NCBI GenBank assembly: GCA_031409655.1
Contig: JANNXQ010000041.1
Span: forward strand, 1-17,324
DNA length: 17,324 bases
Direction of reading: 5' to 3'
DNA from: Chthoniobacteraceae bacterium
Lineage (GTDB): Bacteria; Verrucomicrobiota; Verrucomicrobiia; Chthoniobacterales; Chthoniobacteraceae
Positions 145 through 7,879 of this stretch are shown one piece after another. How positions within the stretch are numbered: position 1 is the stretch's first letter; each line of letters opens with the position of its first letter. Position numbers and translations under genes: made by a program. The notes under the pieces are model-generated. The model was not told the DNA's origin. It did not search any database and worked only from the letters and a program-made list of their open reading frames with translations.

Positions 145-1314
145 CTACCGTCCCGGCGCCAGCTCGAAGAGATGACCCTTCAGATACTCAGTCTCCGGGA
201 TCGTCGGGATGATCGGGTGATCCAGCCCCTGGCGATAGACCGCGAGCTGCCGCAGCGTCTTCTTCGCATCCACCGTCGCGTCATTGATCACCTCCATGAA
301 AGCCTCCGCACTCACATGATAGCTGCAGCAGTAAGTTGCCAGCAGCCCGTCGGTATTCAGGAGTTTCAGCGCCCGCAGGTGGATCTCCTTATACCCGCGC
401 ATCGCCTCATTCACCTTCCCCTTGGTCTTCGTGAAAGAAGGAGGATCCAGCACGATCAGATCATAGCGCTGCTGCTGCCGATCCAGATCATTCAGCACAT
501 CGAAGACATTCGCCGCCACCGCCTCGACCGCGAGCTGGTTCCGCGCGGCGTTACGTTTGATGAGATCCACACAGTCCACGCTGATCTCCAGCGCCGTCAC
601 CTGCGCCGCCCCGGCCCGCGCACACGCCAGCGCAAAGGCCCCTTGATTCGCAAAGCAATCCAGCACCCGCCGTCCCTTCGCCTGCGCCGCGATCGCCGTG
701 TAGTTCGGGAGTTGATCCAGGTAAAATCCCGTCTTCTGCCCGCGCAGCAGATCCACCTCAAATTCCACCCCCGCGACCGTGATCGGGAAAGGCGCCGGCG
801 CGTCGCCATGCACCACGCCCGTGCGCAGTTCCATGCCCTCCGCCTTGCGGATCGGCGCGTCATTGCGCTCCACGATGCTCTGCGGTGAAAAGGCCGCCAC
901 GAGCGCCTGCACGATCAACTCCCGACGCTGATCCATGGCCATCGTCAGCGTTTGCAGCACCAGATGATCCCCGTAGCGATCCACGATCACCCCCGGCAGC
1001 CCATCGCTCTCACTCCAGACCATCCGGCACAGGCGCAGATCCAGCCCGCGCCGCTCCCGATACTTCACCGCCTGCGCGATCCGGCGCGTGAAAAAATCCA
1101 GATCCAGATCCTGCCGCTGCCGCGAGATCCGCCGCGCGATGATCTGCGACTGGCTATTGTAGATCGCCGTCCCCAGCAGGTGATCGCGCCCATCTTTCAG
1201 CGAGACCACATCCCCATCCTTTGGCTCGCCAAAAGCCTTCAAAATCTCCGTCGCATACACCCAGTCATGCCCATGGAGGATGCGTGAACGAGGTTTGATG
1301 ACGAGGCCGGCCAT
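145..1314 (-). CDS. rlmI: Class I SAM-dependent rRNA methyltransferase, RlmI/RlmK family
   Basis: PUA-like N-terminus (GHDWVY), SESDGLPGVIVDRY, GQKTGFYLDQ, VLDCF, DLIVLDPPSF, C-terminal ETEYLK; start placed at ATG 1314 (MAGLVIKP). Confidence 0.85.
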   Translation of the reverse strand: MAGLVIKPRSRILHGHDWVYATEILKAFGEPKDGDVVSLKDGRDHLLGTAIYNSQSQIIARRISRQRQDLDLDFFTRRIAQAVKYRERRGLDLRLCRMVWSESDGLPGVIVDRYGDHLVLQTLTMAMDQRRELIVQALVAAFSPQSIVERNDAPIRKAEGMELRTGVVHGDAPAPFPITVAGVEFEVDLLRGQKTGFYLDQLPNYTAIAAQAKGRRVLDCFANQGAFALACARAGAAQVTALEISVDCVDLIKRNAARNQLAVEAVAANVFDVLNDLDRQQQRYDLIVLDPPSFTKTKGKVNEAMRGYKEIHLRALKLLNTDGLLATYCCSYHVSAEAFMEVINDATVDAKKTLRQLAVYRQGLDHPIIPTIPETEYLKGHLFELAPGR

Positions 1315-1377
1315 GGTGCGAGGGACGCGGAGGGTAGGGGAGCGAGGCGGAAAGTCAACCGGCGCACTCCAGCCCGT

Positions 1378-1534
1378 GTGGCTCAATTTGAAAATCCGGA
1401 CCGAGACTTTCTCAAACGCAAAGACGCAGAGATGCCGAGGACGCAGAGGTTCTGCCCGGCGCCGCCTCTGCGTCCTCCGCGTCTCCGCGCCTCTGCGTTT
1501 TAAAAATGAGCGGAGAATTTTGAAACTGAGCCAC
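1378..1534. mobile_element. MITE-like element with terminal inverted repeats and internal long palindrome
   Basis: GTGGCTCAATTTGAAAAT (1378-1395) vs ATTTTGAAACTGAGCCAC (1517-1534), 16/18 inverted; inner arms 1414-1449 and 1465-1500 are 31/36 inverted and built of ~9-bp ACGCAGAGG units; CTCCAGCCCG direct repeat at 1367-1376 and 1540-1549. Confidence 0.6.
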
Positions 1535-1582
1535 TACCGCTCCAGCCCGCTCAGCCGGATCTGCTCGTCGTCGCCGCTTGCG

Positions 1583-1891
1583 TCAGCCGCTTCGTCCGCC
1601 GAGTCTTCGGCGGATGATTTCGGGGTCTTGGCGGAGGTCCATGACGCCAGAGACGATGATGCGACGTCCCTCGACCGTGTAGAAGATGCCGCAGGGAAAT
1701 CCGTGAACCAGGAGCCGCCGGTAAGACTCATGAAACACTGGCGCGATCTCCGGGAAAGTGCGGAGCTGCCCGAAAGCCACGTCCAAGTGGCGCATGAAAA
1801 CCTCGCCCCGCCCCACCTGAAACGCCTCGTAAAACTCGAACGCCGTCTGGATGTCGGCATCGGCGGAGAAAAGGAAGACCAGCTCACTCAC
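1583..1891 (-). CDS. Type II toxin, RelE/ParE family
   Basis: ~102 aa from GTG 1891: ADADIQTAFEFYE...FPEIAP...YRRLLVHGFPCGIFY...VMDLRQDP; overlaps the upstream antitoxin by 8 nt. Confidence 0.85.
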   Translation of the reverse strand: MSELVFLFSADADIQTAFEFYEAFQVGRGEVFMRHLDVAFGQLRTFPEIAPVFHESYRRLLVHGFPCGIFYTVEGRRIIVSGVMDLRQDPEIIRRRLGGRSG

Positions 1892-2117
1892 TGCTGAGAG
1901 TCCTGCCGAGGATGCGCTGCTGAATGGCCTCCCAAGTGGTGACCTGGCTGGGGTCTCGGCGGTAAGCCTCCATGCGGCGATCAAGCTCGGCAATCTGTTC
2001 GCGGGAAACCGGAACCTCGGTTGGATGGGCCGCCAGATCGTCCCAAAGCTCGCTGACCAGGAGAAGCTTTTGGGCCGGTGTGAGCCGATTCACGTCGGGA
2101 ATGGTTTCGAGGATCAT
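1884..2117 (-). CDS. Addiction module antitoxin (TIGR02574-like)
   Basis: 77 aa: LTPAQKLLLVSELWDDL...ELDRRMEAYRRDP...TWEAI, the family pattern; directly upstream of the toxin. Confidence 0.85.
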   Translation of the reverse strand: MILETIPDVNRLTPAQKLLLVSELWDDLAAHPTEVPVSREQIAELDRRMEAYRRDPSQVTTWEAIQQRILGRTLSSE

Positions 2118-2123
2118 CCCCGG

Positions 2124-2152
2124 AAAATACCCTCTGCCGATTGGGGGAACAA
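2124..2152 (-). promoter_or_regulatory. Putative sigma70 promoter of the TA cassette, probably leaderless
   Basis: Minus strand TTGTTC-N17-TATTTT, 6 nt before ATG 2117; TA cassettes usually carry their own promoter. Confidence 0.4.
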
Positions 2153-2167
2153 GCTCAGAAGCGCCGA

Positions 2168-2420
2168 GTAGAGTAGGCGAGAAGCGATCGCGGGGGCAAG
2201 CTCTGCGCTGGCCCTGCCGGGTTTGCTCCCGAGCCCTCATCAAACCGTGCAGGCGGCTTTCCCGCACACGGCTTTCCGGGAAAAGGGTCGGTGCGTGCAT
2301 CCGTGAAAGCCGAGCGTTTCTGCACGGATGCACGGACCGACCCCTCGACTGCACCTCCGATTCACCCGGGCTTGTTCAACAAGGGTTGCTTGCCGGCTTC
2401 GCGGCAAAGCAACCTTCCGG
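2168..2420 (-). ncRNA. ORF-less group II intron-derived element 1 at a cassette junction, domain V and VI intact
   Basis: DV AAGCCGTGT-GCGG-GAAAG-CCGC-CT-GCACGGTTT (2274-2242) with AGC triad and 2-nt bulge; DVI ends CCT-A-CTCTAC with bulged A at -7; bounded by GGCGAAC (2427-2421) and TCGGC (2167-2163). Confidence 0.8.
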
Positions 2421-2433
2421 GTTCGCCGTTTGT

Positions 2434-3213
2434 TCACTTTTTGAGTGGCTTTTGGAGGACGTAATAGTGCCCTGTCTTGAATGTCCCGCCTGGTTGCGGC
2501 GCGTATGTGCGGACCTTGATAGAGCCATCGGGTTCAGGTTCAAATCGGATTTGAACGTCCTTTGTTAGCGGGGCTAGTGTAAGTAGGGGATTGGACTTGC
2601 GAATGTAAGCTTCGGCCTCAATAAAGTCGTTGGGCCAGCGGCCTTGTTCCGCGAAGAAACGACGCATACCATGTGCAAGAACATATTTTCGGGCGGCGTG
2701 TGCAACAGGAGCGGGCTGATCCAAGAGGAGTTGTAGAACGTCGGAATACAGCGTGCCTTCGGTGTCAATTTTAGACGCGGTGACAAGGGCAGCGGTTTTC
2801 ATGGGCTCGTCGCCGTTCTTGAGTGTCCAAGCAACTGTCGGTAATCCAAGAGCGCCACACTGCTCCAAACCTGTTAGAGCAATGGACCGACCTTTGGCAG
2901 CGGTTGTGTCACGCGCTAACGAGTCGAAGGTTTTGGCTGCTTGTGTGGGACCGACGATCTTGGGTAGAGCCAGAGCTGCCTCGAACCGTACGTTGAAGTC
3001 AGCGTCGCGAAGTAGCTTTTCGAGTGTAGGCGCTTCGGATTTTGCGGTGGGTCCGAGGGTTTCAAGTTGTTTGATTGCGCCTAGTCGCGTTTGGGGATCG
3101 TCGGAGGCGAGTTGCGCACGGTAGGTTGCAGAGCCGCTTGCCTGACCGTTCAGTGGTAATTGCGGCAGGAAGCTAGCGAACGCGAATACGAAGGTGATGT
3201 GCTGGAGATTCAA
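2434..3213 (-). CDS. Secreted HEAT-repeat protein (cassette 4)
   Basis: Signal-peptide-like N-terminus; HEAT-like units LASDDPQTRLGAIKQLETLG and LLRDADFNVRFEAALAL; TTG start uncertain. Confidence 0.65.
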   Translation of the reverse strand: MNLQHITFVFAFASFLPQLPLNGQASGSATYRAQLASDDPQTRLGAIKQLETLGPTAKSEAPTLEKLLRDADFNVRFEAALALPKIVGPTQAAKTFDSLARDTTAAKGRSIALTGLEQCGALGLPTVAWTLKNGDEPMKTAALVTASKIDTEGTLYSDVLQLLLDQPAPVAHAARKYVLAHGMRRFFAEQGRWPNDFIEAEAYIRKSNPLLTLAPLTKDVQIRFEPEPDGSIKVRTYAPQPGGTFKTGHYYVLQKPLKK

Positions 3214-3269
3214 TTGCGTAGGTTCTTGGGTGGGGCTTTCGGTGCGGAGCTAGACGTTGCTGACGGCGA

Positions 3270-3760
3270 GTAGAGTAGGCGAGAAGCGATCGCGGGGGCA
3301 AGCTCTTCGCTGGCGCTGCCGTTTTCGCTTCCGACCCCTCATCAAACCGTGCAGGCGGTTTTCCCGCCGAGGCGGCGGCGGCGGGGAATAGGGCGGACGG
3401 TGGGCGGGCGAGAGGGCTTTCCGAGTTCCATTCATGCGCTTGGCCTTTGGCTTTCATGCAGGGGTCCACGCCGCACTGCGCGGCGGGCTCCAGAGTCCGT
3501 ATTGAAAGCATACGAAGGGACGGGTTGAGGCCAGGCCCTTCCTCCTGAATCACCTCTTTCGGGGCCACCTCGGGGCCAGTCCATGGCCAGTTGGCACCCG
3601 GAGCAACTCTGAGAAGGCCCTTTCGCAGAAAGTGGAATCCGCAAAGGAGCCGTCGCGACGGTCGGGCGGCTAAAACTCCGGGGCGAAAGCGCGCCTCTGC
3701 CTCACCCGGGCTTGTTCAACAAGGGTTGCTTGCCGGCTTCGCGGCAAAGCAACCTTCCGG
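3270..3760 (-). ncRNA. ORF-less group II intron-derived element 2 at a cassette junction, domain V interrupted
   Basis: Last 37 nt identical to element 1 (3270-3306 = 2168-2204); 69-bp identical 5' block (3702-3770 = 2362-2430); 47-nt insert in DV (3368-3414); bounded by GGCGAAC (3767-3761) and TCGCC (3269-3265). Confidence 0.75.
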
Positions 3761-3820
3761 GTTCGCCGTTGGTTCGACTGGAGAATGCCCCCGTAGATGC
3801 GCCCCAAATAGCAAATAGCG

Positions 3821-4294
3821 TCATAGGGCCGGAGAAGCTGAATCTGTCGGGGTGTATTTGCCGTCCACGAGGAACACGCCGGGGTAAAGTGAAGCAACCA
3901 CGATCGAAACGAGGCGCTCGTCGGAAATGTGCATGATCGAATGAGCAAGCTCCTCAAGAATACAGGCAACCTTGAAAGGGTAGGCCAGCGGTTGCATCTT
4001 GTTGCAGTCCACAAAGACCCACGGCTCAATTGTCACATTGATCGTTTCCGGGCCGGATGGAGAATAGGTAAGCTGCCCGCCAGGAAGGTTGAGGCGGAAG
4101 GGTGCCGTGGCGAACGTAACGTGTGTTTTGCGGACGAAACGCACGGATGGGCCGATGCAGGAGACTGCCTCCCAGAATGCTTTCGCGATCGGAAGCATGG
4201 CAGGCGGAAGCGGATTGCAGCTCACGTCGAACATGTGCCGATACTGCTCTGGAATCCCTGCTTCAATATCGCTGGAAGTAACCGGGGAGATCAT
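3821..4294 (-). CDS. Hypothetical protein (cassette 3) with EELAH zincin-like motif
   Basis: 157-aa ORF filling the interval between GTTCGCC and GGCGAAC; ACILEELAHSIMH resembles HExxH. Confidence 0.6.
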   Translation of the reverse strand: MISPVTSSDIEAGIPEQYRHMFDVSCNPLPPAMLPIAKAFWEAVSCIGPSVRFVRKTHVTFATAPFRLNLPGGQLTYSPSGPETINVTIEPWVFVDCNKMQPLAYPFKVACILEELAHSIMHISDERLVSIVVASLYPGVFLVDGKYTPTDSASPAL

Positions 4295-4305
4295 AGGCGC
4301 GCATC

Positions 4306-4341
4306 GGCGAACGACTCAAGCCTGCAGCGCCATTGTTAGGC
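4306..4341 (-). other. 36-bp internally deleted attC-like site
   Basis: Minus strand GCCTAAC-AATGG-CGCTGCAG-GCTTGAGTC-GTTCGCC; the upstream gene's TAA stop lies inside the R'' box, as is typical of cassettes. Confidence 0.7.
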
Positions 4342-5103
4342 GTTTGGTTTGAGGACATTTAGAACGGCGTTTTCGGTTGCTTCGAGTTCGGTGAAAGTAA
4401 GTTGGTCGCTCTCATCCAGCGAGTGCAACCATAGATTGTAGGTTGGCGCTGTAGAACCATCAGAGGACTTGTCATCGGATCGGGATTCGCTGCTGTCCGA
4501 CCAGCCGAACCAGTCGCCGCAACGGTCATCATTCTTGGATTCGCGGTAGCCGTCCTCGTAGCGCCGGTCGTCGGCTTGGTGGGCGTCCGAATATCCGTCT
4601 TTGGAGTCGTCTTTGGAGTCGCGGTAGCCCTCGTCGTGGCCCCGGTCGTAATCGCGGTGACCGTTTGAATATCCTTTGCTGTAGTCGTCCTTGTCGCCTC
4701 CTCCGCCACGCGTCCAAAACATCGTTGTGCCGTCACGAAGCGTCATAAGAGCGATTCCGTGGCGCTGGGCATACGTAATCGCGCCCCTCTGGAACCCGAC
4801 GGTCGCGACAAGAATGCCTTTGTGAGCGCCCACTGCACGAACTCGGTCATGGAGAACTTGGACGACATCTCGCTTGATGGCGTGGTGATGTCGCTTGCAT
4901 TCGACGAGAACGAGAAACTCGACTGCCAACTCTTGGAAGCGGAGAGTGACGTCGATCTCGAACTCTCCGCTGTCTCCAGTCAGCACTTCCTTGTGAGTCG
5001 CGGTAAACTCTCTCAGGCGGGATCCAAGTGCGGAAAAGTAAGAACGCATCTCTCTCTCGAAGTCAGTCGGACTAATGCTGACGGATTTATCCGTGAACTT
5101 CAT
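4336..5103 (-). CDS. Mrr_cat-type PD-(D/E)xK restriction endonuclease with acidic low-complexity segment (cassette 2)
   Basis: SPTDFE...EIDV...LVECKRH...VVQVL...AHKGILVATVGFQRGAITYAQRHGIAL. Confidence 0.8.
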   Translation of the reverse strand: MKFTDKSVSISPTDFEREMRSYFSALGSRLREFTATHKEVLTGDSGEFEIDVTLRFQELAVEFLVLVECKRHHHAIKRDVVQVLHDRVRAVGAHKGILVATVGFQRGAITYAQRHGIALMTLRDGTTMFWTRGGGGDKDDYSKGYSNGHRDYDRGHDEGYRDSKDDSKDGYSDAHQADDRRYEDGYRESKNDDRCGDWFGWSDSSESRSDDKSSDGSTAPTYNLWLHSLDESDQLTFTELEATENAVLNVLKPNA

Positions 5104-5119
5104 GTGTGCGTGCGAAAGC

Positions 5120-5155
5120 GCCTAACGACAAAAGCCTGCAGCGCCATTGGTCGCC
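5120..5155 (-). other. 36-bp internally deleted attC-like site
   Basis: Minus strand GGCGACC-AATGG-CGCTGCAG-GCTTTTGTC-GTTAGGC; inner 22 nt are 20/22 identical to the 4306-4341 site. Confidence 0.7.
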
Positions 5156-5184
5156 GTTTTGCTCGGATTGCCTTCTCTGCGCAT

Positions 5185-6642
5185 TCATTGGTGATCGTCG
5201 ATAAAATCCGAAGGATCAATAATGCCATCCTTCTGCATCAGAACGAACGCCGCCTGAACTTCGGCCACATTAAGACCGGAGACTGGACCGTAGTATCCGT
5301 TCCCTGTGTCATTTGGCCACAAACTGTTTGGGTTTGTAACTGTATTCCGCATCTCCAGATGAAGATGGGGAGGAAAGGAGGACACGGCACCGATCACTCC
5401 GATGACATTGCCCTTGGCTACGGGGCTTCCTTCTTGGTAGGTGAATGCTGCCTCGCTTCCGATCGTTCCAGGGGAGTTTGGGTTTCCGGCGATGGTATCT
5501 GGGGCGACGTGGACGTAGAGGCTGTCAATGGAATCACCATTCTGTAGCCAATGGCGCACAAGGACGACATACCCAGAGGCCGCTGGTCCGGAAGCTGAAG
5601 CCGGTCTGATGTCAATTAAATGTCCGTTTGCGACAGCCTTGACCGGCTCCCCAACATCGTCCGTGTCGCTTCCGCTATTCCAATCCTCTCCGGCGTGGAG
5701 CCCTCCGAAGAGGGAATAATAGCTTCCGACATCCTGAATATTATACCATCCAGCGCCCGGCGTGGTTGCACCTCGATCGGGCCTTGCCACGGGCGATGCT
5801 GGAAATAGCGTGTTTCGTTCAGGGGCAATTTGCTCGAGCACGCTTCCGGAACCGATTGGATAAGCAAAGTCTGTCGCAATGGAAACACCCGGGGGCAAGT
5901 AGGTTGTTCGGTAAAACTTCTGGGGTTGCGTCGGCGTATCAATGACTTCTGTTCCCGGCGTATCGGAGTTGAACTGTATGAGGGGAAACCATTGGCGGAG
6001 GTTGCTCGACCAAGAGGCAAGGCACATAGCACCGGGCTCAGCGGTCGAGAAAATGAACGTGCATGATCCTTCGGGAGTGAGCTGAAAGCTTTTGAGGGCA
6101 CTGCGGCCATCTGCGGGATCATGTTGGTGGGTCGGTAGCGAACGAAAGCGCGGCGGTGTGCCGGTGTACTCGACGACGTATCCGAAACTAGAAGTGCGTC
6201 CGGAGGAATTGTCGTTCCAGCGTCCGACAATGCCATCCAACTCAAGGAAATTTTCGTTGGCGCCCAAGTTGTTCGGTTCGTTCGCCGACCAGTTTGAATA
6301 GGTGAAAGGCTCGCTGGTCACCCAGCGCCATCCTCCGGCGGGCTCAGGCGAGCCGGTGGGTTGATAACCGCCGATCCAGAAATACGGGTCGGAACGGTTG
6401 GCTACAATTACGTCGTTCTCGGCTGGTGAGGTAATCGTCGCAAGATATCCACCGCGGGCTACCGCGGCGTCGCGGGCTGCAGCCCAAGAAATCGAGGGGG
6501 CAGATACGAACTCATACGTATGTCCGTTGCCCCCGCTGCTGGGTAACCAGACAAACGTTGTTTGGGCGACGCAGCTCCCTGACGCGATCAAAAACGCGGT
6601 GAGAACCATGTATTGCTGACAGGGGTTGCGTTTGGAGCGCAT
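5185..6642 (-). CDS. Secreted C-type lectin domain plus M23 metallopeptidase (cassette 1)
   Basis: Signal peptide; CTLD (GNGHTY, WAAARDAA, GGYLATITS, WIGG, EPNN, WND); M23 motifs HAGED, PVKAVANG, YVH, HLHLEMR. Confidence 0.75.
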   Translation of the reverse strand: MRSKRNPCQQYMVLTAFLIASGSCVAQTTFVWLPSSGGNGHTYEFVSAPSISWAAARDAAVARGGYLATITSPAENDVIVANRSDPYFWIGGYQPTGSPEPAGGWRWVTSEPFTYSNWSANEPNNLGANENFLELDGIVGRWNDNSSGRTSSFGYVVEYTGTPPRFRSLPTHQHDPADGRSALKSFQLTPEGSCTFIFSTAEPGAMCLASWSSNLRQWFPLIQFNSDTPGTEVIDTPTQPQKFYRTTYLPPGVSIATDFAYPIGSGSVLEQIAPERNTLFPASPVARPDRGATTPGAGWYNIQDVGSYYSLFGGLHAGEDWNSGSDTDDVGEPVKAVANGHLIDIRPASASGPAASGYVVLVRHWLQNGDSIDSLYVHVAPDTIAGNPNSPGTIGSEAAFTYQEGSPVAKGNVIGVIGAVSSFPPHLHLEMRNTVTNPNSLWPNDTGNGYYGPVSGLNVAEVQAAFVLMQKDGIIDPSDFIDDHQ

Positions 6643-6660: not shown

Positions 6661-6754
6661 GCCGAACTTGTTAATATACGACTGGGAAAAAGGGTCCAGT
6701 CGCATATTGGGGGGTGCGCCAGTCGTATATTGGAGGGGCCTCCAGTCGCATATT
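6661..6754 (-). other. attI-like site: GTT core plus four phased 13-bp boxes
   Basis: GTTCGGC (6667-6661), 5-bp spacer, then CCAGTCGYATATT boxes at 6673 (inverted), 6696, 6719 and 6742. Confidence 0.65.
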
Positions 6755-6772
6755 TCAATTGCGTAGTGGAAC

Positions 6773-6796
6773 AGGGGTCAGGCAACAAAGCTTGAC
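6773..6796 (+). repeat. Left inverted repeat of the Y1 transposase unit
   Basis: AGGGGTCAGGCAACAAAGCTTGAC is 21/24 inverse to 7861-7884. Confidence 0.75.
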
Positions 6797-6826: not shown

Positions 6827-7879
6827 ATGCCCCGCAGCCTGCGCATCGAATATCCCGGCGCCTATTACCATGTGATGGCTCGTGGCAACCGGCGCGAGGC
6901 GATCTTTCGAGATCAGGAGGACCGCCGCTTTTTCCTCAAGACCCTCGGCGAAGCGTGCGGGATGACCGGGTGGCGGGTTCATGCCTGGGTGCTGATGGGC
7001 AATCACTACCACCTGATGCTGGAGACGCCGGAGGCGAACCTGGTGGCCGGGATGGGGTGGCTGCAAAACACCTACACGCGCCGCTTTAACACCCGGCACC
7101 GGCTGTGGGGCCGGTTGTTTGGGGATCGCTACAAGGCGGTGCTGGCCGAGGGTGGGAGCGATTACTACTACGAGACGCTGCTGGATTACATCCATCTGAA
7201 CCCGGTGCGCGCGGGCCTGGTGCGGGCGCGCGCGGGCAGGAGTGTGCTGGATTATCCGTGGTGCAGCGTGGGCGGCGGCCATGCGCTGCCGCCTTCAAAA
7301 CGCCCCGCGTGGCTGGCGACGGAGCGGGCGCTGGCGGCGTTTGGGTGCGCGGACACGGCGGCGGGGCGGCGGCGGTTCGTGGAGCGGCTGGATCGCCAGG
7401 CGGTTGAGGAGGAAATGAAGCGCTGCGGGGTGGCGCCGATGCCCGCGGAGGTGGACGCGCGATGCAGCCATTTGCGACGCGGCTGGTTTTGGGGCAGCCA
7501 GGCGTTTGCCGAGGCGGCATTGAAGGTGGCAAAGGGAGTGCTCGAACGGCCAAGGCATCGGACGACTCGGTCGAGCCTCGAAAAGCGCGCGCATGATGAG
7601 GCGCGAGCGGAGGCGCTGCTGGCTTCCGGGCTGGCGGCGGCGGGGTTGACGCGGAATGAAGTGGCGCGGCTGCCGGGGTCGGACGCGAGGAAGGTGGCGA
7701 TCGCGCGGCTGATCTGGGAAGGAACGACGATGTCGCAGGGCTGGGTGGCGGAGCGTTTGCGGATGGGCAGCGCGGCGAATGTGAGCCAGCAATTGCGCCG
7801 GGCCCGGGATGGGGCCTCACAGACGAAGTTGCCCGCGGAACTCAAGCGTCTGATCAATCAGTCAAGAGTTGTTGCCTGA
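6827..7879 (+). CDS. HUH/Y1 transposase (IS200/IS605 TnpA superfamily, RAYT-like) with C-terminal helix-turn-helix-like extension
   Basis: MPR.LRIEYPGAYYHVMARGNRREAIF, HUH motif LMGNHYHL, LFGDRYKA, catalytic YIHLNPVRAGLV, YPW; C-terminal SQGWVAERLRMGSAANVSQ. Confidence 0.9.
   Translation: MPRSLRIEYPGAYYHVMARGNRREAIFRDQEDRRFFLKTLGEACGMTGWRVHAWVLMGNHYHLMLETPEANLVAGMGWLQNTYTRRFNTRHRLWGRLFGDRYKAVLAEGGSDYYYETLLDYIHLNPVRAGLVRARAGRSVLDYPWCSVGGGHALPPSKRPAWLATERALAAFGCADTAAGRRRFVERLDRQAVEEEMKRCGVAPMPAEVDARCSHLRRGWFWGSQAFAEAALKVAKGVLERPRHRTTRSSLEKRAHDEARAEALLASGLAAAGLTRNEVARLPGSDARKVAIARLIWEGTTMSQGWVAERLRMGSAANVSQQLRRARDGASQTKLPAELKRLINQSRVVA

What the first reader, a model, noticed from the sequence alone, without database searches (positions are those of the whole stretch)
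2163..3770. Two RT-less group II intron-derived elements replace attC sites at consecutive cassette junctions
Seen: both junctions read, on the gene strand, GGCGAAC (attC R'') - identical structured 5' block - variable middle - domain V - domain VI with bulged A - CTCTAC - TCGCC or TCGGC. The intron 3' end falls exactly at GT^T of the R' box (GTTCGCC), twice. They are only 253 and 491 nt, with no RT ORF, no clear GUGYG start and no recognisable domain I. DVI differences between the copies keep the pairing (GGGAGC vs GGAAGC opposite GCTTCT). Established: IIC-attC introns such as S.ma.I2 insert at TTGT^T on the attC bottom strand, antisense to the genes, and typically have a CGC triad; these are sense-oriented with an AGC triad. 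Inference: either fossils of a different attC-targeting intron lineage or a domesticated junction element, possibly relevant to how cassettes are made or processed.
Basis: partly seen in the sequence, partly recalled or inferred. Interest (0 to 1): 0.9.

Follow-up and report, generated by a model that had tools for sequence, protein, structure and literature searches.

The report
Dead intron tails at cassette junctions
Two gene-cassette junctions of a soil-type verrucomicrobial genome each carry the broken-off tail of a mobile group II intron next to an unrelated small hairpin repeat; they are decayed remains of an intron family that homes into integron recombination sites, not a new working element.

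Summary
The repeats are real, but each junction element is a mosaic, and only its 3' end comes from an intron. Only window 2168-2278 (copy 1) and 3270-3504 (copy 2), minus strand, match a group II intron.

- **Copy 1:** an intact domain V plus VI (Rfam RF00029, 43.4 bits against a cut-off of 40).
- **Copy 2:** the last codons of the intron's protein gene and domain VI. Its domain V is split by a 47-nt repeat and no longer scores.
- **The "identical 5' block":** not intron. It is a hairpin repeat with 23 distinct copies in hand, 19 of them with no intron remnant downstream.
- **Parents:** full-length, reverse-transcriptase-encoding relatives exist in related Chthoniobacterales genomes and in metagenomes. 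At 4 of 4 readable 5' junctions and 5 of 5 3' junctions they sit, gene-sense, at GT^T of the attC R' box (...GGGGTCGT | intron | TAGGC).
- **Own genome:** an integron integrase on another contig, five intron tails and no reverse transcriptase.

"Domesticated junction element" has no support. Truncated intron tails in cassette arrays and sense-oriented attC introns are both published, and this scan has noted sense-strand attC introns in other genomes, so this is a new member of a known kind.

The parts
2168..2278 (-). Intron fossil 1: intact domain V plus extended domain VI, ending CTCTAC at 2168
   Evidence: RF00029 43.4 bits at 2168-2276. 85% identical to positions 1891-2001 of the full-length G036 intron. 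Fold.
2163..2167 (-). TCGGC: right half of the split R' box and start of the antitoxin/toxin cassette
   Evidence: Sequence. Relatives show intron|TAGGC at the same position.
2283..2345 (-). REP-like palindrome filling the middle of element 1; not intron
   Evidence: Copies on C6, C29, C187, C140, C188 and C267. Hairpin seen as spurious miRNA hits.
2361..2427 (-). Element 1 5' block: R''-like GGCGAAC (2421-2427), hairpin (2381-2420), GTTGAAC (2374-2380), AAGCCCGGGTGAA
   Evidence: 85-nt repeat. Member of a hairpin family with 23 distinct copies. 11-bp consensus hairpin.
3270..3504 (-). Intron fossil 2: last ~20 codons of the IEP ORF, domain IV 3' side, disrupted domain V, domain VI
   Evidence: 74% identical to G036 intron 1810-2001. 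Alignment A2. No RF00029 hit.
3368..3414 (-). 47-nt repeat inserted in the 5' strand of domain V of fossil 2, replacing GTGT
   Evidence: Alignment A2. The same segment hits C15, C141, C179, C62, C75, C46 and C286 and many relatives (query 358-414).
3265..3269 (-). TCGCC: right half of the split R' box and start of the HEAT-repeat cassette
   Evidence: T+TCGCC is the exact complement of GGCGAA in that cassette's own R'' (2421-2427). TCGCCGTCAGCA also follows GT in the attC beside intI on C132.
3560..3767 (-). Element 2 5' block: R''-like GGCGAAC (3761-3767), hairpin (3721-3760), GTTGAAC (3714-3720) and the rest of the conserved module, with TTGCGGATTCCACTTT at about 3629-3644
   Evidence: 87% identical over 204 nt to C124, and similar to C29 (two places), C55, C271 and C69. 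Alignment A1.
3505..3559 (-). Unassigned 55 nt between the hairpin module and intron fossil 2
   Evidence: No match.
4305..4345 (-). Short attC (GCCTAAC ... GTTCGCC) between the Mrr_cat cassette and the 157-aa cassette
   Evidence: Reads as a centre-deleted form of the classical attC.
5119..5159 (-). Short attC (GGCGACC ... GTTAGGC) between the lectin/M23 cassette and the Mrr_cat cassette

Best explanation
The window holds a cluster of integron cassettes with no integrase nearby. The cassettes, all on the minus strand, are lectin/M23, Mrr-like nuclease, a 157-aa unknown, a HEAT-repeat protein, and an antitoxin with its partner.

At two consecutive junctions the attC site was first invaded and then eroded:
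- **At its R' end.** A group II intron of a Chthoniobacterales lineage inserted gene-sense between GT and T of R' (inferred). Full-length relatives do this, with an apparent 8-bp EBS1-IBS1 pairing to the conserved GGGGTCGT just upstream.
- **Next to R''.** A small hairpin repeat, alone or with a roughly 130-nt module, sits directly after the AAC of the box.

Later deletions removed about 1.8 kb of intron (domains I-IV and the RT gene) together with the core of the attC. Other small repeats then landed in the gap. What is left is a 111-nt tail (domains V-VI) and a 235-nt tail (ORF end, broken domain V, domain VI).

These tails cannot splice or move, because there is no domain I and no RT anywhere in the assembly. 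Their one likely consequence, which is inferred and not shown, is that R' now reads AC|TCGCC instead of GT|TCGCC, so the neighbouring cassettes are welded together.

The 69-nt identity of the two 5' blocks suggests one junction was copied or gene-converted from the other, rather than two fully independent histories.
For: 1. **Homology is limited to the intron's 3' end.** e1 158-268 and e2 272-506 match positions 1891-2001 and 1810-2001 of a 2001-nt intron at G036:C714. Nothing else matches.
2. **That intron is complete.** RVT_1 128.8 bits and GIIM 52.2 bits; RF00029 47.8 bits; group-II-D1D4-6 40.3 bits, below its cut-off of 49.
3. **Target site.** G036:C714 and the metagenome loci L080, L081 and L082 (IEP 78-81% identical) all read ...GCTGAGCTTGGGGTCGT|GTGCG...CTCTAC|TAGGC, which is 4 of 4 readable 5' junctions. 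With L083, 5 of 5 3' junctions read TAGGC. Intact attC sites of the same type read ...GCTGAGCTTGGGGTC GTTAGGC/GTTCGGC.
4. **Recognition.** Intron positions 201-208, ACGACUCC, can pair with the 5' exon GGGGUCGU (pairing worked out by eye).
5. **Cassette register in the window.** Each cassette's first bases complement its own R''. Three of the four cassettes checked fit 6 of 6: Mrr (TTAGGC/GCCTAA), the 157-aa cassette (TTCGCC/GGCGAA) and HEAT (T+TCGCC/GGCGAA). Lectin fits about 4 of 6. Own contig C29 also fits (fossil|TAGCC with R'' GGCTAAC).
6. **Tails with different breakpoints lie at cassette junctions elsewhere.** G099:C345 has two consecutive junctions with the same hairpin. Others are G107:C25, G036:C714 (second copy) and G036:C480.
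7. **Own genome.** Five intron 3' ends, no RVT_1 match, and one larger fragment on C45 with a GIIM remnant of 53.6 bits. An integron integrase lies on C132 (389 bits, cut-off 265), beside an attC ending GGTCGT|TCGCCGTCAGCA.
8. **The hairpin block is independent.** Of 23 distinct copies, 19 have no intron tail within 500 nt downstream. None of the 10 loci from other MAGs has an RF00029 match at E<=0.01.
Against: - Copy 1 keeps an undamaged domain V-VI.
- The same pairing of hairpin plus intron tail recurs at two consecutive junctions in another genus (G099). This could hint at selection or at a preferred joint product.
- The assembly is 94.9% complete in 306 contigs, and repeats assemble poorly, so a full-length parent in this organism cannot be excluded. 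Domain V sequence is 30-50 times deeper than the unique cassettes in the metagenome contigs, but that depth sums over all organisms.
- The order of events (hairpin insertion, intron insertion, deletions) is inferred from comparisons, not seen.
- The 5' exon expected for this lineage (...GGTCGT) is not present upstream of either fossil, so insertion at these very sites is inferred from the 3' junction alone.
- Lectin, one of the four cassettes, fits the R''/R' register only about 4 of 6.
- The last cassette has no recognisable attC.
Confidence: 0.8

Rival explanations
1. Domesticated junction element: hairpin plus domains V-VI has been kept as a working RNA or DNA module that stands in for attC, for example in cassette processing, termination, or as a binding site for an intron protein.
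For: The same two-part architecture occurs at consecutive junctions here and in G099:C345. Domain V-VI of copy 1 is intact.
Against: - Breakpoints differ in every copy.
- Copy 2's domain V is split by a repeat.
- The middles are filled with unrelated repeats.
- 19 of 23 hairpins carry no tail.
- G107 has a tail without the hairpin.
- There is no RT or maturase in the assembly to bind it.
- The intact structure is what a recently derived copy would show anyway.
Confidence: 0.05
2. Non-autonomous mini-introns: the 253- and 491-nt units are ORF-less group II derivatives that still splice or move with a protein supplied in trans.
For: RT-less group II-derived ribozymes exist in the literature (listing only; details recalled). 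Copy 1 has a catalytic domain V.
Against: - There is no domain I: no D1-D4 model hit at E<=10 and no similarity to intron positions 1-1800.
- There is no GUGYG 5' end.
- The assembly has no RT.
- 111 nt of intron sequence cannot provide exon-binding sites or the catalytic scaffold (established group II intron biology).
Confidence: 0.03
3. The tails are 5'-truncated insertions made directly by abortive reverse transcription, with each junction hit independently, rather than full-length insertions later eroded by deletion.
For: Only 3' ends survive, with variable 5' breakpoints. Both explanations predict this. The published H.ha.F1/F2 and UHB.F1 are also 5'-truncated (PMC7923331, section 7 and passages).
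Against: - The attC sequence that should lie directly upstream of a clean truncated insertion (...GGTCGT) is missing and is replaced by other repeats.
- In G099 both tails join the same attC position, CATGCGCTGCC, with short shared letters at the joints, which looks like deletion.
- The 69-nt identity of the two 5' blocks suggests copying between junctions.
Confidence: 0.12

Closest known systems
H.ha.F1 and H.ha.F2, truncated group II introns in a Halorhodospira halochloris CALIN (Sonbol and Siam 2021, PMC7923331; abstract, passages and section 7 read)
   Same: - Only the 3' end survives (domains V and VI plus part of the IEP ORF).
- They lie in a cassette cluster without a neighbouring integrase.
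- An IS200/605-type transposase gene is nearby, and toxin-antitoxin cassettes are in the array.
   Different: - Different phylum (Verrucomicrobiota against Gammaproteobacteria).
- Those were assigned to bacterial class E, whereas this lineage is unassigned.
- Here the exact junction (GT^T of R') and full-length parents at attC sites are documented, and the tails are fused to a second, unrelated attC-associated repeat.
Sense-oriented attC introns: UHB.I2 (IIB1/CL1), and the 'unusual' group IIC intron in the top strand of an Enterobacter cloacae attC (both as described in PMC7923331; the E. cloacae paper itself was not seen)
   Same: Same orientation as the cassette genes. Associated with the top strand and the downstream end of attC.
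   Different: - Different intron lineage. The IEP here is closest to IIC RTs among solved structures (6ar1, 200 bits, against 150 for the IIB T.el4h RT and 130 for LtrA), but domain V has AGC.
- The window's copies are dead tails, not whole introns.
Group IIC-attC introns such as S.ma.I2 (PMC3001079, abstract and passages; PMC7923331, passages)
   Same: - They home to integron attC sites, next to a DNA hairpin.
- They cut within a GT/T motif of an R box.
- The IEP has no endonuclease domain.
   Different: - Those insert in the bottom strand, at R'', antisense to the cassettes. This lineage is in the top strand, at R', in the sense orientation.
- Its catalytic triad is AGC. The CGC triad of IIC is recalled and was not tested here.
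RT-less group II-derived ribozymes and ORF-less introns (HYER-type; listing only, details recalled)
   Same: No RT ORF. Small size.
   Different: Those keep a complete ribozyme core including domain I. These units keep only domains V-VI (and in copy 2 not even an intact V).

Membership tests
Group II intron (Rfam RF00029, domains V-VI) | Domain V helix with catalytic triad, 2-nt bulge and tetraloop, scoring above the Rfam gathering score | tested here: met
   Copy 1: 43.4 bits against 40, with a canonical fold. Copy 2 fails this row: no hit at E<=10 and a 47-nt insertion in the 5' strand.
Group II intron (Rfam RF00029, domains V-VI) | Domain VI with a bulged adenosine 6-8 nt from the 3' end | tested here: met
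   CCUACUCUAC in both copies. The A is unpaired in the fold of copy 2 and of the G036 intron, and in the Rfam alignment of copy 1.
Functional (self-splicing or mobile) group II intron | Domains I-IV with exon-binding sites and a GUGYG 5' end | tested here: not met
   No D1-D4 model hit at E<=10. No similarity to intron positions 1-1800. The sequence after the hairpin starts TGAACAAG....
Functional (self-splicing or mobile) group II intron | Intron-encoded RT/maturase, in cis or elsewhere in the genome | tested here: not met
   No RVT_1 match in the 6.85-Mb assembly, which is 94.9% complete. Only a 95-aa GIIM remnant on C45 and about 20 codons in copy 2.
Group IIC-attC introns | Inserted in the attC bottom strand, antisense to the cassette genes | tested here: not met
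   The fossils and the cassette ORFs are all on the window's minus strand. The full-length relative G036:C714 follows a stop codon and R'' in the same direction.
Group IIC-attC introns | IEP within the monophyletic IIC-attC clade | not tested
   No reference IEP set was at hand. The only datum is that the nearest solved structures are IIC RTs.
Truncated group II intron remnants in integron cassette arrays or CALINs (H.ha.F1/F2 type) | Only the 3' part (domains V, VI, with or without the IEP 3' end) survives, lying between cassettes of an array without an adjacent integrase | tested here: met
   for content. for the cassette array. The integrase is on another contig. Upstream of the array lies a Y1 transposase gene, not intI.
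Integron attC site | R'' (RYYYAAC) and R' (GTTRRRY) boxes flanking an imperfect hairpin, with R' distal bases complementary to the next cassette's R'' | tested here: inconclusive
   R''-like boxes, a hairpin with one extra C on the 3' side, and the 6-of-6 register are present. R' is split by the fossil, the hairpin belongs to a separate repeat family, and no attC covariance model was available.

The most novel reading that the evidence does not exclude
Hairpin-plus-domain V-VI junctions might be a selected, recurrent product rather than random wreckage. The tail would keep the maturase-binding and branch-site end of the intron exactly at the cassette boundary. A reverse transcriptase from a full-length intron elsewhere in the community could then prime on it and copy cassette transcripts, giving an RNA-level route for moving or making cassettes, close to the cassette-formation idea raised for IIC-attC introns. 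A more modest version is that attC sites of Chthoniobacterales are targeted by two dedicated parasites: a top-strand R'-homing intron lineage and an R''-side hairpin element.
Probability: 0.06. Interest if true: 0.8.

Novelty: new member of a known kind. Interest (0 to 1): 0.3.

Why it matters
As it stands this is ordinary decay. It shows how integron recombination sites in an environmental phylum are disabled by mobile-element insertions and deletions, which fuses neighbouring cassettes.

Its modest value lies at the level of the lineage. It documents, with full-length parents and exact junctions, a gene-sense, top-strand attC R'-homing group II intron family in Verrucomicrobiota. This adds to the few published sense-oriented cases. 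The family would be a convenient natural system for asking how intron exon-binding sites adapt to a conserved attC segment.

The hairpin module that sits directly after R'' is a separate lead for people who annotate attC sites.

Tried and rejected
- **Intron start after CTTGT.** I first read the 5' block as a 55-nt attC with the intron starting after CTTGT, because joining CTTGT to TCGCC restores GTTCGCC. I rejected this because GTTGAACAAGCCCGG follows the hairpin in nearly all of the 23 copies, across families and without any intron. The supposed empty site on C226 is as well explained by a 10-nt deletion.
- **AACCATGCGCTGCC in G099 as a retained intron 5' end.** Rejected: it is the left part of the classical attC (GCCTAAC CATGCGCTGCAG...).
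- **The 5' module as a structured RNA.** RNAalifold on 18 copies gave only the 11-bp hairpin with one covarying pair plus a 3-bp stem. Rfam gave nothing at E<=10 in the window, no credible family match at E<=1 in eight own-genome loci (RF00029 on the C45 locus, a tRNA, a sub-threshold Acido-Lenti-1 hit elsewhere, otherwise sub-threshold miRNA/snoRNA noise), and nothing at E<=0.01 in ten MAG loci.
- **Promoter and terminator scan of 1500-5300.** Nothing beyond chance.
- **Public runs.** No RNA holder is listed. Four DNA metagenome runs of one study hold the stretch as contigs. The contigs break at the repeats, and no form lacking the elements was seen. This says nothing about expression or about empty sites.
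- **EBS2 search in the G036 intron.** Only candidates downstream of EBS1, which is the wrong place. Left open.
- **Intron class.** Could not be assigned, because no reference IEP set was available. The Rodriguez-Martinez et al. paper on the E. cloacae intron is not in the library.
- **The genome search limits.** It scored only 2-10 candidates per genome, so copy numbers in relatives are lower bounds.
Full report
**Context**

The window is a whole 17.3-kb contig (C41) of a 6.85-Mb, 306-contig assembly that is 94.9% complete. Relatives found by an exact pattern are all Chthoniobacterales MAGs, phylum Verrucomicrobiota.

Bases 145-6642 carry minus-strand genes:
- a methyltransferase
- a 117-aa ORF overlapping an Unstab_antitox antitoxin (1884-2120)
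- a HEAT-repeat protein (2434-3213)
- a 157-aa unknown (3821-4294)
- an Mrr_cat nuclease (4336-5103)
- a lectin/M23 protein (5185-6642)

Upstream of these lies a Y1 (IS200-like) transposase gene (6827-7879, +), not an integrase. The genome does encode an integron integrase on contig C132 (TIGR02249, 389 bits against a cut-off of 265). Next to it is an attC reading GGCGAAC...GCTGAGCTGGTC GTTCGCC GTCAGCA. The window is therefore a cassette cluster without its own integrase.

**The observation**

- Two repeat pairs exist: 104 nt at 91% and 85 nt at 94% identity.
- On the gene strand both junctions read stop codon, GGCGAAC, hairpin, GTTGAACAAGCCCGGGTGA, a variable middle...CCTACTCTAC, then TCGGC or TCGCC.
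- Rfam's domain V-VI model matches copy 1 at 2168-2276 with 43.4 bits, above its cut-off of 40.
- Copy 2 gives no match even at E<=10. Aligned to intact relatives, its domain V has GTGT of the 5' strand replaced by 47 nt (3368-3414).
- No D1-D4 model matches either copy.
- Folding gives a canonical domain V in copy 1, and a long domain VI with the unpaired A six bases from the end.

**What is intron and what is not**

blastn of both elements against two full-length relatives finds only e1 158-268 (intron 1891-2001, 85%) and e2 272-506 (intron 1810-2001, 74% including the insertion). Every other alignment has E>=0.24. The intron-derived parts are therefore 2168-2278 and 3270-3504.

Copy 2 begins inside the last codons of the intron's protein gene (...YGLWTPPR...), as alignment A2 shows.

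The middle of copy 1 is a palindrome with copies on six other contigs. The 47-nt insert of copy 2 is another dispersed repeat.

**The parent lineage**

- **Own genome.** It has five copies of the 3' end: C41 twice, C45, C226 and C29. It has no RVT_1 match. C45 keeps a 95-aa maturase remnant (GIIM, 53.6 bits) and then breaks off into unrelated sequence.
- **G036:C714.** This related genome holds a complete 2001-nt intron. It has a GTGCG start and a 502-aa ORF with RVT_1 (128.8 bits) and GIIM (52.2 bits) and no endonuclease domain. It scores RF00029 at 47.8 bits and D1D4-6 at 40.3 bits, below that model's cut-off of 49.
- **Solved structures.** The protein is nearest to group IIC RTs: 6ar1 at 200 bits and 7uim at 195, against 150 for a IIB RT and 130 for LtrA. 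I could not assign a class.

**Target site**

G036:C714 lies eight bases after a stop codon plus an R'' box (GCCTGAC) and a long hairpin. Its junctions read ...GCTGAGCTTGGGGTCGT | intron | TAGGCGAC, so removing the intron restores R' GTTAGGC.

A metagenome scan with its protein gave 41 loci:
- The four closest (78-81% identity) with a readable junction all show the same site. L080, L081 and L082 show it at the 5' side, and L080-L083 show it at the 3' side. With G036 that makes 4 of 4 5' junctions and 5 of 5 3' junctions.
- The more distant relatives with a readable 3' junction (mostly about 44% identity; 26 loci, L087-L119) all have 3' exons starting with C and no such site.
- The roughly 22 copies of a related intron in G007 are also not at attC-like sites.

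Intact sites of this 'classical' type occur after stop codons in several MAGs. They read GCCTAAC CATGCGCTGCAGCGAAC ... GTCGCTGAGCTTGGGGTC GTTAGGC/GTTCGGC.

Intron positions 201-208 (ACGACUCC) can pair with GGGGUCGU. The equivalent loop of the G007 intron (CAAGAGU) pairs with its own, different 5' exon (ACTCTTG). That is inference from sequence.

**Are the window's tails at such a site?**

Their 3' ends abut TCGCC and TCGGC. Three things support this being the right half of R':
- **Cassette register.** Each cassette's first bases complement its own R''. Mrr (TTAGGC/GCCTAA), the 157-aa cassette (TTCGCC/GGCGAA) and HEAT (T+TCGCC/GGCGAA) each fit 6 of 6. Lectin fits about 4 of 6. The last cassette has no recognisable attC.
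- **A second own-genome case.** C29 has fossil|TAGCC, and that cassette's R'' is GGCTAAC.
- **Matching flank.** TCGCCGTCAGCA is also what follows GT in the attC beside intI.

The expected 5' exon (...GGTCGT) is not present upstream of either tail, so insertion at these very sites rests on the 3' junction alone.

**The 5' block**

The hairpin has nine places in this genome and eleven matches in ten loci from seven other MAGs. In all there are 23 distinct copies in hand:
- 19 have no intron tail within 500 nt downstream.
- 13 carry a conserved TGCGGATTCCACTTT-like tail 49-82 nt further on.

The copies examined lie within about 20 nt after a stop codon and directly after an R''-like ...AAC.

In G099:C345 the same 46-nt hairpin lies exactly between the R'' AAC and CATGCGCTGCC of a classical attC. 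This happens at two consecutive junctions, each followed by an intron tail of different length and then CTCTAC|TAGGCGA.

The hairpin, or the whole module, therefore looks like a second, independent attC-associated insertion. That reading is moderately supported, at about 0.5. The two short 36-nt sites in the window read as classical attC sites with the centre deleted.

**Most likely history** (inferred)

1. A classical attC was hit at the R'' side by the hairpin module and at GT^T of R' by the intron.
2. Deletions then removed the attC core and about 1.8 kb of intron.
3. Small repeats filled in.
4. One junction may have been copied onto the other, since the 5' blocks are identical over 69 nt while the tails differ at 9% of positions and in what they retain.

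**Function now**

With no domain I and no RT, the tails cannot splice or move. R' is changed from GTT to ACT, so the site should no longer recombine. This was not tested.

**What is already known**

- IIC-attC introns insert antisense in the bottom strand (PMC3001079, PMC7923331; passages).
- Sense-oriented cases are published: UHB.I2, and a top-strand IIC intron in E. cloacae.
- 5'-truncated tails with domains V and VI and part of the ORF in a CALIN are also published: H.ha.F1/F2 (PMC7923331, section 7).
- Earlier notes of this scan list several sense-strand attC introns in other genomes. I did not check these.

This is therefore a new member of a known kind. It extends the pattern to Verrucomicrobiota with a well-defined target.

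**Limits**

- No RNA data are listed for this stretch, and only metagenome contigs could be laid.
- No attC covariance model and no reference IEP set were available.
- Copy counts in relatives are lower bounds.

Noticed in passing
window 2361-2427 and 3560-3767 (-); L071 (G099:C345); L058-L067: A conserved hairpin, or hairpin plus a roughly 130-nt module ending TTGCGGATTCCACTTT, sits directly after the R'' AAC of attC sites in Chthoniobacterales. There are 23 distinct copies in hand. In G099 it lies exactly between R'' and CATGCGCTGCC of a classical attC, as an attC-targeting MITE-like insertion would. No Rfam family matches it.
   Followed up: partly
window 4305-4345 and 5119-5159: Two 36-nt attC sites that look like the roughly 110-nt classical attC of this order with its centre deleted. 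They still keep the R''/R' register with their neighbours.
   Followed up: partly
window 2283-2345: A 63-nt REP-like palindrome with copies on contigs C6, C29, C187, C140, C188 and C267. A Y1/RAYT-type transposase gene lies at 6827-7879.
   Followed up: no
window 3368-3414: A 47-nt C-rich repeat (CTCTCGCCCGCCC...CCCTATT...) inserted in domain V of fossil 2. The same segment is dispersed over at least 7 own contigs and many relatives.
   Followed up: no
window about 1415-1515: A long palindromic element (AAAACGCAGAGG...CCTCTGCGTTT) at the downstream end of the cassette cluster. Similar elements follow hairpin modules at two places on C29.
   Followed up: no
window 6700-6790: Three to four direct repeats of ATATGCGACTGG/ATATACGACTGG, with an inverted copy, between the first cassette and the Y1 transposase gene. 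They could be transposon-end or attI-like sequence.
   Followed up: no
window 4535-4690: A 78-nt tandem duplication (74% identity) inside the Mrr_cat cassette ORF.
   Followed up: no
G007 (L050, L051 and about 20 more places): A related genome carries about 22 near-identical full-length copies of a sister intron, with 5' exons such as CTATTG and CTCTTG. They are not at attC sites, so attC homing is specific to one sublineage.
   Followed up: partly
L078 (G101:C29:1-140): An intron 3' end is followed directly by TGCATGCCGCGAAGCCGGCACACTTGT, which resembles the loop half of the hairpin repeat. This juxtaposition is unexplained.
   Followed up: no
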